Assembly (NCBI RefSeq): GCF_009914755.1
Contig: NC_060925.1
Source: the human T2T-CHM13v2.0 reference genome, Homo sapiens
DNA length: 64,000 nucleotides
Reading direction: 5' to 3' (one strand)
This document shows positions 30,434 through 40,453 of this stretch, piece by piece (the first letter of the stretch is position 1; each line of letters starts with the position of its first letter). The notes below the pieces were generated by a model. It was not told the origin of the DNA. It worked only from the letters and a program-made list of their open reading frames with translations, and made no database searches. A program made the translations under genes and the position numbers.

Positions 30434-30623
30434 TGTTCCATCGACCTGAAGAAAAATGTACTCGTGATCGGCACCACAGGCTCCCAGACCACCTTTCTTC
30501 CTGAGGGAGAGCTACCAGAGTGTGCCCGGTTGGCATATGGGGCTGGAAGAGAGGATGTACGGCCAGAGGAGATTGCAGACCAAGAATTAGCAGAAGCCCT
30601 TCAAAAATCAGCAGAGGATGCAG
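30434..30623 (+). CDS. DDI2: DDI2 coding exon 8 (end of RVP plus [21 protein letters not shown])
   Basis: ttccaag| acceptor (less common AAG), CAG|gtattt donor, 190 nt (63 codons + 1, ends phase 1); overlaps ORF 30464..30700. Confidence 0.96.
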
Positions 30624-35346: not shown

Positions 35347-35363
35347 AGCGTCAGAAGCCATGA
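35347..35363 (+). CDS. DDI2: DDI2 exon 9 coding part (ERQKP-stop); whole exon 35347-35409
   Basis: cacag|AG CGT CAG AAG CCA TGA gives the known ERQKP C-terminus. In-window CDS is 1062 nt; with a 138-nt exon 1 this makes 399 aa plus stop. Donor CAG|gtattt at 35410. Confidence 0.93.
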
Positions 35364-36858
35364 TGCATGTAGTGTGTGTGTACTGCAGCTGGAGTGGGCC
35401 CCAGACCAGGTATTTATAGACACCATGTTAAGCCTTCCATCCAGTTGTCATCTGTGATCTGACAGTCTGTATCCGCAGCAGTTTGGGAAGTTAGCATTTG
35501 TCATTCACCATTTCACCTTGTTCAATCTGGTTACAACTAGCCTATATGCATTTGTATTTTGGCATGCATACATGGATATGTAACATAAACTCCTGTTTAA
35601 AAATGGATTCGTTATTAGAACCATCCAACAGGGAGAAAATCCCAGTTAAAACAGTGTCTATTATATCTACCCCATCTTGGCTACTATAAATATCACATCA
35701 AGAATATTGGCCTCACAACACTTTGTTGTTGGAGATAACTATGCTTTCATGGGTTTCATAAGTGCCTTTCCTCTGAAAAACTGAAAGCTGTTCTTTTACA
35801 TTACTGCATACAACTACCTGGAGTTATAGAGGGTTAGAAATTTTAATTTTGTTGAAGAAGAAATGGAAACTTAGGCCAGAGGACTTGTCAGGGGTGACTC
35901 TGAACAACAGGAACTAAGACTTTGCTTTTCCTTCTGTCTCTGGCCTGACAGATTTTCAGGAAGCACTCTGCTTCCATTTCCTCTGATGTAAATAATGGTA
36001 AACATCAGCTCGAATACATTGGCTGACTTACTAAGAGGAGGAAAGATGGTCTTTTAAACCAGCATCATAAGACTTTGTAGGAGTTTGCAAGCTGGTTGGA
36101 ATTAGATACATAGCATTTAGTTTCTCTTCTTTCTTTCCTTTTTCTTTTCCTTGTAAGGATAGGTTAAAAGCAGGCATAGTTGAATTATTCTTAATATCCA
36201 CTGTCCTCATCCTCTTCTCCTGTCATTCTGTAAACTGACCTAGTCCTCCCCTACGTTTAGGACTTAGGCTAGTGAAACTGACCTTCTCAGCTACAAGAGG
36301 ACTATATGCTACTTTTTTAGTACAAAATTCATTGAGGGTGTGTTCACCTTGACCTCACTTGTTTATAACTAACACACAAATACCAGAAGGCCCTTACCAT
36401 ACCTCTTTATGTTGCTTACATGGATATTTCACTACAGTGCATTGTTTCTGTTAACATTAGTTCAAAATTCAACCTCTTCCAGAGTCAGCCTTAGTTTTAA
36501 ATAAAACTAATAACTGTTAGACATCTGGTGGTATGAAAATAAAAAAACTAATAACTGTGTTTCTAGACTCTAATGGGTATAGCCTAAACTGAGATAAGTG
36601 CAGTTTTCCTTTTTACTCCTAAAGTGTAAGTAAGGTAAGATTGTTTCATGGGAAGTCAATAGCTTCCTGAAACAATGCTTTGTCTTCTCATGCTGTTAAC
36701 CAGTAGTTTATTAGAATGATTTAAAGCCTTTTGAATATAACTGCTTTGCTGCTTTTTAAGATCAAGCCCTCTTGTTGGATGTTAACATTTAGTACTGAGC
36801 ATTTGAGTTGCATCTGTCCTAATAATAGATTGTATTTTGAAGTCATTTTTGTTACTGA

Positions 36859-38228: not shown

Positions 38229-38599
38229 TCTAGAGTTGTAGACTAGACTAGGGAATAAAGAAACATAAATGTCCTTCATTCCTGAGCACTAACCCCGCCA
38301 TTATGTGAATGCATATTAATGGATACTTAATCACATTGAATTACAGTATGCAGATTTTATTAAGAACATGTCTACCTCTTATTCTGATGCTGTGAATGTC
38401 TACCACAATGAGAAAGTAATTTTAAAATCATTTCTATTTGTGTAAGAGAAACCCGAGTTTGAGGACCTTATTTTATTCTACGCTGTTTAGATTTGTATCC
38501 TCTGGTAATTTAGTGGCATTAGTCACCTGCTAATTAATCTTTTTCCTTTCCCCTGTGTTCCATATAGAGAAAAGTGGTAAAGAATCTACCTCACTGGGA

Positions 38600-40453
38600 A
38601 TGTCATCATTACCAACTTCAGATGGGTTTAACCATCCCGCCCGTTCTTCAGGACAGAGTCCTGATGTTGGTAATCCTATGAGTCTTGCTCGCTCTGTCTC
38701 TGCTTCAGTCTGCCCTATCAAGCCCAGTGACTCAGATCGCATTGAACCTAAAGCTGTGAAGGCTTTGAAGGCTTCAGCTGAATTCCAGCTAAACTCTGAA
38801 AAGAAAGAACATCTTTCTTTACAAGATCTTTCTGATCATGCTTCCTCAGCAGACCATGCTCCAACAGACCAGAGTCCAGCTATGCCTATGCAGAATTCAT
38901 CCGAAGAAATAACTGTTGCAGGTAATCTGGAGAAATCTGCTGAAAGAAGCACCCAGGGCCTCAAATTTCATCTCCATACAAGACAGGAAGCTAGTTTATC
39001 TGTCACATCTACTAGGATGCATGAACCACAGATGTTTCTAGGTGAAAAGGATTGGCATCCAGAAAATCAGAACCTGAGTCAAGTGAGTGACCCTCAGCAG
39101 CACGAAGAACCAGGGAATGAACAGTATGAGGTTGCACAACAAAAAGCTTCACATGACCAAGAATATCTTTGTAACATAGGGGACCTTGAGCTTCCTGAAG
39201 AAAGGCAACAGAATCAACACAAAATTGTTGATTTGGAAGCTACGATGAAAGGAAATGGGCTCCCACAGAATGTGGATCCTCCAAGTGCGAAGAAAAGTAT
39301 TCCATCTTCAGAATGCAGTGGCTGCTCAAATTCAGAAACATTTATGGAAATCGATACAGCTCAACAGTCCCTAGTTACTTTGCTTAATTCAACAGGCAGG
39401 CAGAATGCCAATGTCAAGAACATTGGTGCATTGGATCTCACTTTAGATAATCCCTTGATGGAAGTAGAAACATCAAAATGTAACCCTTCATCTGAAATTT
39501 TGAATGATTCCATTTCCACTCAGGATTTACAGCCCCCAGAAACTAATGTTGAAATACCTGGAACAAATAAAGAATATGGCCATTACTCCTCTCCAAGTCT
39601 CTGTGGCAGTTGTCAGCCTTCTGTGGAGTCAGCAGAAGAATCTTGCCCGTCTATAACGGCAGCCTTGAAAGAACTTCATGAACTTTTGGTTGTTAGCAGT
39701 AAACCAGCTTCAGAAAATACATCTGAAGAAGTAATCTGTCAATCAGAAACCATAGCTGAGGGCCAAACCAGTATTAAAGACCTTTCTGAAAGATGGACCC
39801 AAAATGAGCATCTTACCCAGAATGAACAGTGTCCACAAGTCTCCTTTCATCAGGCCATATCTGTATCAGTGGAGACAGAAAAATTAACAGGTACTTCATC
39901 TGACACTGGAAGAGAAGCTGTAGAAAATGTAAACTTCAGGAGTCTAGGTGATGGCCTGTCAACCGATAAGGAAGGTGTCCCCAAATCTAGGGAATCCATA
40001 AATAAGAACCGTTCTGTCACTGTAACCTCAGCTAAAACATCCAATCAGTTACACTGCACCTTAGGTGTAGAAATTTCACCCAAACTTTTAGCAGGTGAGG
40101 AGGATGCACTCAATCAGACTTCTGAGCAAACTAAGTCTTTGTCATCCAATTTCATATTGGTTAAAGACTTAGGTCAGGGCATACAGAATTCAGTAACAGA
40201 CAGGCCTGAAACCAGAGAAAATGTCTGTCCTGATGCTTCGAGGCCATTACTTGAATATGAACCACCTACCAGCCATCCATCATCAAGTCCTGCCATTCTT
40301 CCACCATTGATTTTTCCTGCCACAGATATTGACCGCATTCTCCGTGCTGGCTTTACTTTGCAGGAAGCTCTTGGAGCTTTGCATCGAGTTGGTGGGAATG
40401 CAGACCTTGCACTTCTTGTTTTGCTCGCAAAAAACATCGTAGTTCCTACATGA
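38600..40453 (+). CDS. RSC1A1: RSC1A1 (RS1, regulator of SGLT1), 617 aa, uninterrupted ORF with C-terminal UBA domain
   Basis: Within ORF 38555..40453 the first ATG is at 38600 (gggaATGt) and gives 617 aa, MSSLPTSDGFNHPARSSGQSP... It carries the known RS1 motifs QSP (x2), SDSDRIEP and QCP, an amphipathic LKELHELLV helix, and a UBA (TDIDRILRAGFTLQEALGALHRVGGNADLALLVLL, ~40322-40430). Confidence 0.96.
   Translation: MSSLPTSDGFNHPARSSGQSPDVGNPMSLARSVSASVCPIKPSDSDRIEPKAVKALKASAEFQLNSEKKEHLSLQDLSDHASSADHAPTDQSPAMPMQNSSEEITVAGNLEKSAERSTQGLKFHLHTRQEASLSVTSTRMHEPQMFLGEKDWHPENQNLSQVSDPQQHEEPGNEQYEVAQQKASHDQEYLCNIGDLELPEERQQNQHKIVDLEATMKGNGLPQNVDPPSAKKSIPSSECSGCSNSETFMEIDTAQQSLVTLLNSTGRQNANVKNIGALDLTLDNPLMEVETSKCNPSSEILNDSISTQDLQPPETNVEIPGTNKEYGHYSSPSLCGSCQPSVESAEESCPSITAALKELHELLVVSSKPASENTSEEVICQSETIAEGQTSIKDLSERWTQNEHLTQNEQCPQVSFHQAISVSVETEKLTGTSSDTGREAVENVNFRSLGDGLSTDKEGVPKSRESINKNRSVTVTSAKTSNQLHCTLGVEISPKLLAGEEDALNQTSEQTKSLSSNFILVKDLGQGIQNSVTDRPETRENVCPDASRPLLEYEPPTSHPSSSPAILPPLIFPATDIDRILRAGFTLQEALGALHRVGGNADLALLVLLAKNIVVPT

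What the first reader, a model, noticed from the sequence alone, without database searches (positions are those of the whole stretch)
35347..35409. Exon 9 is a symmetric 63-nt stop cassette whose stop sits just inside the NMD-safe distance
Seen: the exon is 63 nt (a multiple of 3) and phase 1 at both ends. It encodes only ERQKP and then two in-frame stops (TGA 35361, TAG 35370). The first stop ends 46 nt before the last exon junction (35409). Its donor CAG|gtattt is weak and identical to that of exon 8, and exons 9 and 10 both start with AG. Known: stops more than 50-55 nt upstream of the last junction trigger NMD. Inference: it works as a truncation switch that yields stable short DDI2 rather than decay, and the double stop blocks read-through into RSC1A1.
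Basis: partly seen in the sequence, partly recalled or inferred. Interest (0 to 1): 0.75.

Follow-up and report, generated by a model that had tools for sequence, protein, structure and literature searches.

The report
DDI2 terminator exon before RSC1A1
This 63-base exon ends the ordinary 399-residue DDI2 protein, and leaving it out would join DDI2 in frame to the neighbouring RSC1A1 coding region, giving back the ubiquitin-binding tail that vertebrate DDI2 is said to have lost.

Summary
Exon 9 is 63 nt and phase 1 at both ends. It reads E-RQKP, then TGA, C, M, TAG. The first stop ends 46 nt before the last junction, and the donor 9-mer equals exon 8's.

The "short DDI2" is the canonical 399-aa protein. 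Almost any stop in a 63-nt penultimate exon is NMD-safe: 17-19 of 20 codon positions.

The important point is what lies behind the exon. Exon 8 joins exon 10 in frame with the whole RSC1A1 ORF. That junction appears in 57 of 120 listed mammalian RSC1A1 relatives. Long DDI2 forms with the same tail also occur among diverse unnamed vertebrate representatives, and the residue aligned to RSC1A1's Met is not Met in 9 of 17 aligned rows, mostly non-mammalian-like ones. A profile of the tail matches the yeast Ddi1 UBA best (E 2.7e-8).

The 5-residue tail and its stop are conserved across tetrapods. In two snakes the first stop is lost and the ORF ends at the second.

Exon 9 is therefore an ancient terminator cassette between DDI2-short and a UBA-bearing DDI2-long. 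Skipping in human is unproven, and every spliced ORF of this region from transcript-sized contigs that I saw includes exon 9.

The parts
30434..30623 (+). DDI2 exon 8. It encodes the C-terminal UIM and ends in phase 1 (last base G). Its donor is CAG|GTATTT.
   Evidence: sequence. (translation ending ..[13 protein letters not shown]). (Siva 2016: UIM at residues 376-396). (donor).
35347..35409 (+). DDI2 exon 9. It is 63 nt, phase 1 at both ends, and acts as the terminator cassette of the short (canonical) isoform.
   Evidence: and the hub annotation.
35347..35348 (+). AG at the start of the exon. It can serve as an acceptor 2 nt downstream, giving a 61-nt exon read in the +1 frame. The resulting tail ends at TAA at about 38578-38580 in exon 10.
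   Evidence: the translation of 35351-35407 is identical to the tail of P0167, a 418-aa protein named as human DDI2 (UniProt A0AA34QVV2). The TAA position is my own reading.
35361..35363 (+). First stop (TGA) of DDI2. It ends 46 nt upstream of the last exon junction.
   Evidence: The position after a 5-residue tail recurs in 48 of 120 listed short forms, from mammals to amphibians.
35370..35372 (+). Second in-frame stop (TAG), three codons after the first.
   Evidence: It is the stop actually used in two snake models, ECQKPRCM-stop.
35373..35409 (+). Part of exon 9 after the stops. It is open in the canonical frame and continuous with the exon 10 / RSC1A1 frame. It contains a short (TG)n run.
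   Evidence: In one search, 19 of 120 listed ORFs start inside this stretch and run across the exon 9/10 splice into RSC1A1. Seventeen of them have an identical 22-residue lead.
38531..38533 (+). In-frame TAA in intron 9, 23 codons upstream of the RSC1A1 ATG. It closes the frame on unspliced RSC1A1 mRNA, which starts at 38444.
38568..38599 (+). First 32 nt of exon 10 (AG plus 10 codons, KSGKESTSLG). It is annotated non-coding, but it is open and in frame between exon 8 and the RSC1A1 ATG.
   Evidence: Conserved as a K-E-T-T-S-L-type linker in long DDI2 forms down to fish-like representatives.
38600..40453 (+). RSC1A1 ORF (617 aa plus stop). It corresponds to the C-terminal half of the long DDI2 form.
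40307..40423 (+). UBA-type domain at the C-terminus of RSC1A1. The boundaries are approximate.
   Evidence: residues 13-51 of window:40271-40450 align to the NUB1 and Ddi1 UBA domains; a family profile hits the yeast Ddi1 UBA (2mr9) at E 2.7e-8.

Best explanation
Exon 9 is the conserved terminator exon of the short, canonical DDI2 isoform. It sits between exon 8 (UIM) and the 9.2-kb last exon.

The last exon's reading frame is continuous with exon 8. It encodes a long disordered region that ends in a Ddi1-type UBA domain. Mammalian annotation files that frame as a separate gene, RSC1A1.

When exon 9 is included, translation adds E-RQKP and stops. The stop is 46 nt from the last junction, so the terminating ribosome should clear the exon-junction complex. 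The mRNA is then not an EJC-dependent NMD target, even though it carries a spliced intron in its 3'UTR. A second stop three codons later catches read-through or loss of the first stop.

When exon 9 is skipped, the same pre-mRNA would encode UBL-HDD-RVP-UIM-linker-UBA, about 1,022 aa in human. This is the ancestral Ddi1 architecture.

Shown here: the anatomy, the frame continuity, the conservation of both endings, and the Ddi1-type UBA.

Inferred: that skipping happens at a useful level in human, and that exon length is held under the NMD limit by selection.
For: 1. Anatomy and frames.

2. Exon 8 to exon 10 junction. Of the 120 RSC1A1 relatives listed (out of 223 hits), 58 carry the DDI2 UIM and RSC1A1 in one chain. 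Of these, 57 have the junction ..DA-E-[KR][SG]G[KE]E[ST]TS[LP]G-M... One is named 'protein DDI1 homolog 2 isoform 2 [Bos taurus]' without the X prefix. A pangolin model of 1,101 aa turned up in the 'longer' search.

3. Wider spread. Of 87 representatives that match the last 90 aa of RSC1A1, 14 also carry the DDI aspartyl-protease domain PF09668. Their closest named DDI2 proteins are marsupial (99.7%), crocodilian (96.6%), frog (96%), caecilian (96%), lizard (95%) and bichir (83%).

4. No start codon in many lineages. In the junction alignment the linker is conserved. The residue aligned to human RSC1A1 Met1 is M in 8 of 17 rows and T, T, I, R, A, P, A, G, P or T in the rest. In those lineages the UBA region has no start codon at this position. 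Its C-terminus is nevertheless near-invariant in all 14.

5. UBA identity. A profile of 14 C-terminal tails gives the yeast Ddi1 UBA (2mr9) as best PDB hit at E 2.7e-8. The next hit is at 6.9e-4, and S. pombe Mud1 scores 0.048.

6. Short ending. Of 120 listed short DDI2 forms, 48 end in a 5-residue tail closing with P. These include ERQKP in eutherians, marsupials, lizards and pigeon, EHQKP in geckos, a turtle and a tinamou, and DQQKP in frogs. Two snakes end ECQKPRCM.

7. Published context. Siva et al. 2016 (passages read) already state that the ancestral UBA now lies in RSC1A1.
Against: - No human evidence of skipping. RefSeq has one DDI2 transcript (hub table).
- Among the 120 listed hits, the ORFs from transcript-sized contigs (sources 'lgn' and 'ena') fall into three kinds: exon 9 spliced to exon 10, a start at the RSC1A1 Met, or unspliced (P0090). 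The cluster identical to human, P0002, is listed with 208 contigs. None shows exon 8 joined to exon 10, and no fusion cluster lists such a source. A further 103 hits were not listed, so partial fusions could be hidden there.
- Most fusion proteins are automatic gene models. They may copy one another by homology projection, so their number is not a count of independent observations.
- Models exist only where the frame is open, which biases the 57 of 58 figure.
- Human RSC1A1 alone gives no Pfam UBA match at E <= 0.1. On its own it matches the Ddi1 UBA only at E 0.57.
- The long 3'UTR could still attract EJC-independent NMD.
- The representatives carry no names, so their taxa are inferred by similarity only.
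Confidence: 0.62

Rival explanations
1. Exon 9 is in practice constitutive in human and most mammals. RSC1A1 is made only from its own intron-9 promoter. The in-frame continuity of exon 8 with exon 10 is a relic of an old gene split, and the many 'DDI2 isoform X1' fusions are by-products of gene-model pipelines that prefer the longest ORF.
For: - Human RefSeq has a single DDI2 transcript (hub table).
- All spliced ORFs of this region from transcript-sized contigs include exon 9. None of the listed ones joins exon 8 to exon 10.
- RSC1A1 mRNA starts at 38444 and has its own in-frame upstream stop.
- The RS1 review treats the protein as standing alone. I read only its passages on RSC1A1. It is not among the 10 papers that hold both names.
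- No paper found or 23 describes a fusion isoform.
Against: - In 9 of 17 aligned rows the position of the RSC1A1 Met is not Met, while the UBA tail stays near-invariant. That is hard to explain unless the long form is translated in those lineages.
- The 10-codon linker upstream of the human ATG is conserved without indels in 57 of 58 fusion models, and in recognisable form in fish-like sequences.
- One bovine fusion carries a name without the X prefix.
Confidence: 0.3
2. The exon's length and stop position are tuned by selection to sit just under the NMD threshold, and the double stop is selected specifically to block read-through into RSC1A1.
For: - The 46-nt distance.
- The stop position is conserved after exactly five residues in 48 of 120 listed short forms.
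- The part of the exon after the second stop keeps its length in 17 of 19 exon 9/10 ORFs.
- Snakes use the second stop.
- The exon is symmetric, so read-through of both stops would indeed enter the RSC1A1 frame.
Against: - 17-19 of 20 codon positions in a 63-nt exon are NMD-safe, so no tuning is needed.
- A second stop within three codons is expected about 13% of the time.
- TGA followed by T is not, as far as I recall, a leaky context.
- Predicted Cebus and Sciurus proteins imply exon lengths of about 64 and 61 nt, and Sciurus has lost the TAG.
- Conservation of the 3' part of the exon could equally reflect splicing signals or the alternative +1 frame used by the 418-aa isoform.
Confidence: 0.2
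3. The exon's main role is to make DDI2 mRNA bicistronic. After termination at the exon 9 stops, ribosomes reinitiate 78 nt downstream at the RSC1A1 ATG.
For: - Spliced mRNAs carrying exon 9, exon 10 and the whole RSC1A1 ORF are common among the listed ORFs (19 of 120).
- The distance from the stop to the ATG in the mature mRNA is 46 + 32 = 78 nt.
Against: - By general knowledge, reinitiation after a 399-codon ORF is very inefficient in eukaryotes.
- RSC1A1 has an annotated transcript start of its own (hub table).
- Nothing in my calls tests this idea.
Confidence: 0.04

Closest known systems
Stop codon in the penultimate exon within 50-55 nt of the last exon junction (the NMD '50-55 nt rule')
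   Same: The stop lies in the penultimate exon, 46 nt from the junction. PMC8555832 (introduction passages) says the stop lies in the last exon or the last 55 nt of the penultimate exon in nearly all mRNAs.
   Different: Nothing differs in kind. The unusual feature is what lies after the junction: a complete, in-frame 617-codon ORF.
Poison (NMD-triggering) cassette exons
   Same: A short cassette that brings an in-frame stop into the message.
   Different: The stop is too close to the last junction to trigger EJC-dependent NMD. The included form is also the main protein-coding mRNA, not a decay substrate.
Yeast Ddi1, fly Rngo and other non-vertebrate Ddi1-like proteins (UBL-RVP-UBA shuttle proteases)
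   Same: The exon-9-skipped product would have UBL, HDD, RVP and a C-terminal UBA. A profile of that UBA matches the yeast Ddi1 UBA best.
   Different: A spacer of roughly 570 residues and a UIM lie between the RVP and the UBA. The common vertebrate product lacks the UBA.
The Siva et al. 2016 account of the DDI2/RSC1A1 locus (PMC4962041)
   Same: [quoted passage not shown]
   Different: They describe RSC1A1 as a new gene inserted into the locus and say all vertebrate Ddi1-like proteins lack a UBA. The data here fit an uninterrupted terminal coding exon plus an alternative stop exon, with long UBA-bearing forms still modelled across vertebrates.
Tandem (back-up) stop codons
   Same: There is a second in-frame stop three codons after the first, and it is used when the first is lost in snakes.
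   Different: Enrichment of tandem stops has been argued for ciliates (PMC6879139, listing only), and for yeast as far as I recall. Here it is a single case with a chance expectation of about 13%.

Membership tests
NMD-immune penultimate-exon stop (50-55 nt rule) | [quoted passage not shown] | tested here: met
   35409 - 35363 = 46 nt.
NMD-immune penultimate-exon stop (50-55 nt rule) | The mRNA level is insensitive to UPF1/SMG1 inhibition. | not testable with these tools
   No expression data were available. The search 'DDI2' plus 'nonsense-mediated' gave 124 papers, and none of the 12 listed addresses this.
Alternatively spliced cassette exon | Transcripts with the exon are observed. | tested here: met
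   RefSeq NM_032341.5 (hub table). ORFs from transcript-sized contigs cross the exon 9/10 splice in 19 of 120 listed hits and the exon 8/9 splice (for example P0131 and P0124).
Alternatively spliced cassette exon | Transcripts without the exon are observed in the same species. | tested here: inconclusive
   The exon 8/10 junction is present in 57 of 120 listed mammalian proteins. These are mostly gene models, none is human, and none comes from the transcript-sized contig sources.
Alternatively spliced cassette exon | Symmetric length (a multiple of 3), so that skipping keeps the frame. | tested here: met
   The exon is 63 nt in human and the frame into exon 10 is open. Length may differ by +1 in Cebus and -2 in Sciurus, as inferred from predicted proteins. 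Skipping keeps the frame whatever the exon length.
Poison exon | Inclusion places a stop more than 50-55 nt upstream of a downstream junction and leads to decay. | tested here: not met
   The distance is 46 nt, and the included form is the annotated coding mRNA.
UBA domain of the Ddi1 type (C-terminus of the exon 10 ORF) | Significant sequence match to a solved Ddi1 UBA. | tested here: met
   Profile A1 against the PDB: 2mr9 'DNA damage-inducible protein 1', E 2.7e-8, covering residues 3-42 of 44. Human sequence alone: E 0.57. Pfam UBA is not found on the human sequence at E <= 0.1, but it is found on orthologous tails such as P0293 at E 5.7e-6.
UBA domain of the Ddi1 type (C-terminus of the exon 10 ORF) | Three-helix fold and ubiquitin binding. 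| not tested
   No structure prediction or binding assay was run.
Tandem back-up stop | A second in-frame stop within a few codons, kept across species. | tested here: inconclusive
   Present in human. The position is matched in 2 snake models, where it is the functional stop. It is lost in the Sciurus model. Chance expectation is about 13%.

The most novel reading that the evidence does not exclude
Vertebrate DDI2 never lost its UBA domain. The full-length, ancestral-type protease is the exon-9-skipped isoform (UBL-HDD-RVP-UIM-spacer-UBA). 'RSC1A1/RS1' is its C-terminal half, which gained a start codon and a promoter of its own in mammals. Exon 9 is a tetrapod-wide splice switch that sets the ratio of UBA-less to UBA-bearing DDI2. 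If the long form is made in human cells, it could account for DDI2's unexplained preference for long ubiquitin chains. It would also mean that Rsc1a1 knock-outs and RS1 antibodies touch DDI2 as well.
Probability: 0.3. Interest if true: 0.72.

Novelty: new member of a known kind. Interest (0 to 1): 0.5.

Why it matters
DDI2 activates NRF1 (NFE2L1), which drives the proteasome bounce-back response. A long-standing puzzle is how DDI2 reads polyubiquitin with only a millimolar-affinity UIM while still preferring longer chains.

If a UBA-bearing long isoform exists, it is an obvious candidate for that activity, and exon 9 would be its on/off switch. A splice-switching oligonucleotide could then target it.

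It would also change how RSC1A1/RS1 is read. RS1 is currently treated as a free-standing, mammal-type regulator of SGLT1.

If skipping proves negligible in human, the locus is still a clean example of a gene split by a stop-bearing exon placed inside the NMD-safe zone.

Tried and rejected
- Pfam on the exon 10 ORF gave nothing at E <= 0.1. The UBA had to be reached with a family profile instead.
- Osswald 2005 (PMC538757) is not held, so I could not read how the Rsc1a1 knock-out relates to Ddi2.
- 'RSC1A1' plus 'intronless' found no paper.
- 'DDI2' plus 'UBA domain' plus 'isoform' found 20 papers, of which 15 were listed. I read passages from two, and neither mentions a long isoform.
- 'DDI2' plus 'RSC1A1' found 10 papers. 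By their titles and abstract openings (listing only), all but Siva 2016 are on unrelated topics, and I read passages from Siva 2016 alone.
- Invertebrate Ddi1 proteins did not appear among the 88 representative hits to the RSC1A1 tail. Hits of 400-520 aa carried no protease domain. The link to Ddi1 therefore rests on the PDB profile hit and on position, not on a direct chain of homologues.
- I considered that exon 9 might be a recent repeat-derived exon. I rejected this because its coded tail is conserved down to amphibians.
- I considered the identity of the exon 8 and exon 9 donors as a mechanistic clue. I dropped it because one shared 9-mer among eight donors is not remarkable, and the choice in skipping is between acceptors.
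- No vertebrate genome or RNA-seq resource was available. Exon length in other species, PSI and NMD sensitivity could therefore not be measured.
Full report
**Observation**

I read the three splice regions directly.
- Exon 9 runs from 35347 to 35409 and is 63 nt. Its acceptor is cacacag|AG and its donor is CAG|gtattt.
- Exon 8 ends in phase 1. Its last G plus the AG of exon 9 makes GAG (E).
- The frame then reads R-Q-K-P, TGA (35361-35363), C, M, TAG (35370-35372). It stays open to the exon end.
- The first stop ends 46 nt before the junction.
- The donor 9-mer is identical to that of exon 8.
- Exons 9 and 10 both begin with AG.

Every factual item in the finding is therefore correct. One adjective is not supported. 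By a crude count of matches to the consensus, the donor scores 7 of 9. The gene's eight donors in the window score 7, 6, 6, 6, 6, 8, 7, 7. I had no better splice-site scorer.

**How much is chance**

- A stop at in-frame codons 4-20 of this exon (17 of 20) lies within 50 nt of the junction. A stop at codons 2-20 (19 of 20) lies within 55 nt. "Just inside the safe distance" is thus mostly a property of a short exon.
- A second stop within three codons is expected about 13% of the time.
- Ten open codons are expected about 62% of the time.
- A matching phase is expected one time in three.
- The sequence alone therefore proves little. Comparison with other species carries the argument.

**What lies behind the exon**

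- Exon 10 entered in phase 1 reads E, then KSGKESTSLG, then the Met of RSC1A1. It continues through the whole 617-codon RSC1A1 ORF without a stop.
- Skipping exon 9, or reading through both stops, would therefore fuse DDI2 to RSC1A1.
- On unspliced RSC1A1 mRNA, which starts at 38444 according to the hub table, the same frame is closed by TAA at 38531-38533.

**What is published**

- Siva et al. 2016 (PMC4962041, passages read) give DDI2 as 399 aa, with a UIM at residues 376-396.
- They say that Ddi1-like proteins of all vertebrates lack a UBA. [quoted passage not shown]
- I found no paper describing an exon-9-skipped or fused isoform:
  - 10 papers hold both gene names. By their titles and abstract openings all but Siva 2016 are on unrelated topics, and I read only Siva 2016.
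  - 20 papers, passages read from two.
  - none.
  - two versions of an unrelated paper.
- The RS1 review treats RS1 as a separate protein in the passages I read (PMC7462918). It does not hold the name DDI2 (it is absent).
- Supplements were not consulted.

**Relatives of the RSC1A1 ORF**

- The 'longer' search found one pangolin protein of 1,101 aa with DDI2 domains and full RSC1A1 coverage.
- The 'near' search found 223 hits, of which 120 were listed. All named entries are mammals. My tally of the 120 is:
  - 58 have the DDI2 UIM and RSC1A1 in one chain. Of these, 57 have the exact exon 8 to exon 10 junction. The exception is a Camelus model.
  - 2 more fusions lack exons 7-9.
  - 19 start inside exon 9, after the second stop, and cross the exon 9/10 splice.
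  - 38 start at the RSC1A1 Met.
  - 3 are other cases: Cebus in another frame of exon 9, one unspliced, and one with a different upstream exon.
- One fusion is named "protein DDI1 homolog 2 isoform 2 [Bos taurus]". As far as I recall, NCBI puts an X before model-only isoforms, so this name suggests a reviewed record. I could not check it.
- Seven fusions were read in full.

**Transcript-like evidence, which cuts the other way**

- The ORFs that start M-CTAAGVGPRP-E-KSGKE.. come from sources marked 'lgn', from contigs of 1-6 kb. They join exon 9 to exon 10 across a 3.1-kb intron, so they must derive from spliced RNA.
- The cluster identical to human (P0002) stands for 208 contigs.
- Seventeen of the 19 have the same 22-residue lead. 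This shows that the part of the exon after the TAG keeps its length in those species.
- No listed ORF from these sources joins exon 8 to exon 10, and no fusion cluster lists such a source.
- This argues that inclusion dominates, at least in primates. The 103 unlisted hits could hide partial fusions.

**Beyond mammals**

- The last 90 aa of RSC1A1 matched 88 of 1.84 billion representatives at E <= 0.001.
- I scanned 87 of them with Pfam. The 88th, P0109, was already known. Fourteen carry the DDI protease domain PF09668, with the RSC1A1-type tail at their C-terminus. Their lengths are 831-1,082 aa.
By blastp of their first 420 residues, the closest named DDI2 proteins are:
  - Sarcophilus, 99.7%
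  - Gavialis, 96.6%
  - Eleutherodactylus, 96%
  - Rhinatrema, 96%
  - Pogona, 95%
  - Euleptes, 95%
  - Spea, 91%
  - Erpetoichthys, 83%
  - One is about 78% identical to all of them.
- In the junction alignment the linker after the UIM is recognisably conserved, in a K-E-T-T-S-L pattern.
- The residue aligned to human RSC1A1 Met1 is M in 8 of 17 rows and another residue in 9.
- The C-terminal end is near-invariant in all 14.
- A strongly conserved domain with no start codon at this position is best explained by translation as part of a long DDI2.

**Identity of the tail**

- Human sequence alone gives weak hits: NUB1 UBA at E 0.016 and yeast Ddi1 UBA at E 0.57.
- A profile of 14 tails gives the yeast Ddi1 UBA (2mr9) as by far the best solved match, at E 2.7e-8. 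The next hit is at 6.9e-4, and the S. pombe Ddi1 orthologue Mud1 scores 0.048.
- This supports the claim of Siva et al. that this is the ancestral Ddi1 UBA.

**The short ending**

A search with the exon 8 region of a bovine fusion against shorter proteins gave 316 hits, of which 120 were listed. My tally is:
- 48 end in a five-residue tail closing with P. These are ERQKP, ERQRP, ERPKP, EHQKP, DQQKP, DQRKP, EQRKP, DTPKP, EDERP and one odd GRPWP. They run from eutherians and marsupials to lizards, birds, turtles, frogs and a caecilian.
- 2 snakes (Thamnophis, Ahaetulla) end ECQKPRCM.
- 41 run on with G. Most look like read-in to intron 8 from genomic contigs. The bichir is one of them and may be genuine.
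- 23 have other tails.
- 3 have other five-residue tails.
- 2 end at exon 8.
- 1 lacks the anchor.

The stop position is thus held across tetrapods. The snake tail equals the human stop-C-M-stop with the first stop replaced by R, so the second stop is old and does act as a back-up.

Against strict conservation, a Sciurus model has lost the TAG, and the Sciurus and Cebus models imply small indels in the exon. A short (TG)n run in the exon may favour such slips.

**A third product**

P0167, named as human (UniProt A0AA34QVV2, 418 aa), has a tail whose exon 9 part equals the translation of 35351-35407. This means the AG at 35347-35348 is used as the acceptor and the exon is read in the +1 frame. 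By my reading, that frame ends at a TAA twelve bases into exon 10. All three products (399 aa, 418 aa, and about 1,022 aa) place their stop where an EJC cannot trigger NMD.

**Mechanism proposed**

- Including exon 9 ends DDI2 after the UIM.
- At 46 nt from the junction, the stop is close enough for the terminating ribosome to displace the last EJC. The mRNA is therefore stable despite its 3'UTR intron. The rule is stated in the PMC1854916 abstract (listing) and in PMC8555832 passages.
- Skipping exon 9 restores the UBL-HDD-RVP-UIM-spacer-UBA protein.
- The anatomy, the frames, the conservation and the UBA identity are shown here.
- Use of the switch in human, its regulation, and selection on exon length are inferred.

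**Verdict**

The NMD point is an ordinary instance of a known rule.

The more interesting content is that this small exon is the hinge between canonical DDI2 and an ancestral-type long form. The other half of that long form is annotated as RSC1A1. Databases already hold many such models, and one paper has noted the UBA link. No paper I could find describes the splice switch.

I rate interest at 0.5, and give a 0.3 probability that the long form is a working human protein.

Noticed in passing
Related proteins P0172, P0173, P0181, P0184, P0185, P0190, P0191, P0193, P0194, P0196, P0198, P0204, P0205, P0209, P0215, P0168, P0175: Birds, turtles, crocodilians, tuatara, lizards and snakes have a further alternative DDI2 tail of about 30-45 residues after exon 8. 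It ends in a CaaX-like box (CVLS, CALL, CVLL, CILL, CILA, CVIF, CTLL, CVLQ), which suggests a prenylated isoform. In the crocodilian-like long form P0255, the first part of this tail is spliced in frame ahead of the exon 10 linker.
   Followed up: no
window 35347-35348 and about 38578-38580: The AG that opens exon 9 doubles as an acceptor 2 nt downstream. It gives a 418-aa protein named as human (UniProt A0AA34QVV2, P0167) that reads exon 9 in the +1 frame and stops at a TAA early in exon 10.
   Followed up: partly
window 35371-35381: A short (TG)n run lies inside exon 9, right after the second stop. Predicted Cebus (P0010) and Sciurus (P0087, also P0092) proteins imply 1-2 nt length changes in this exon, and Sciurus has TGG in place of the TAG.
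   Followed up: partly
P0082 (Castor) and P0102 (Octodon): Rodent models join ..GRVHL directly to the exon 10 linker. Exons 7-9 (104 + 190 + 63 = 357 nt, in frame) are skipped together, which removes half of the protease domain while keeping the RSC1A1 part.
   Followed up: no
P0146 (Trichechus, 420 aa; cluster of 235 members): Another tail follows exon 8 (E-K-TPHFNRL..., 26 residues). Its exon I did not locate in the window.
   Followed up: no
window 38444-38567: The annotated RSC1A1 mRNA starts 124 nt inside DDI2 intron 9 and contains the unspliced exon 10 acceptor. One 'ena' ORF (P0090) shows the same unspliced boundary in another mammal.
   Followed up: no
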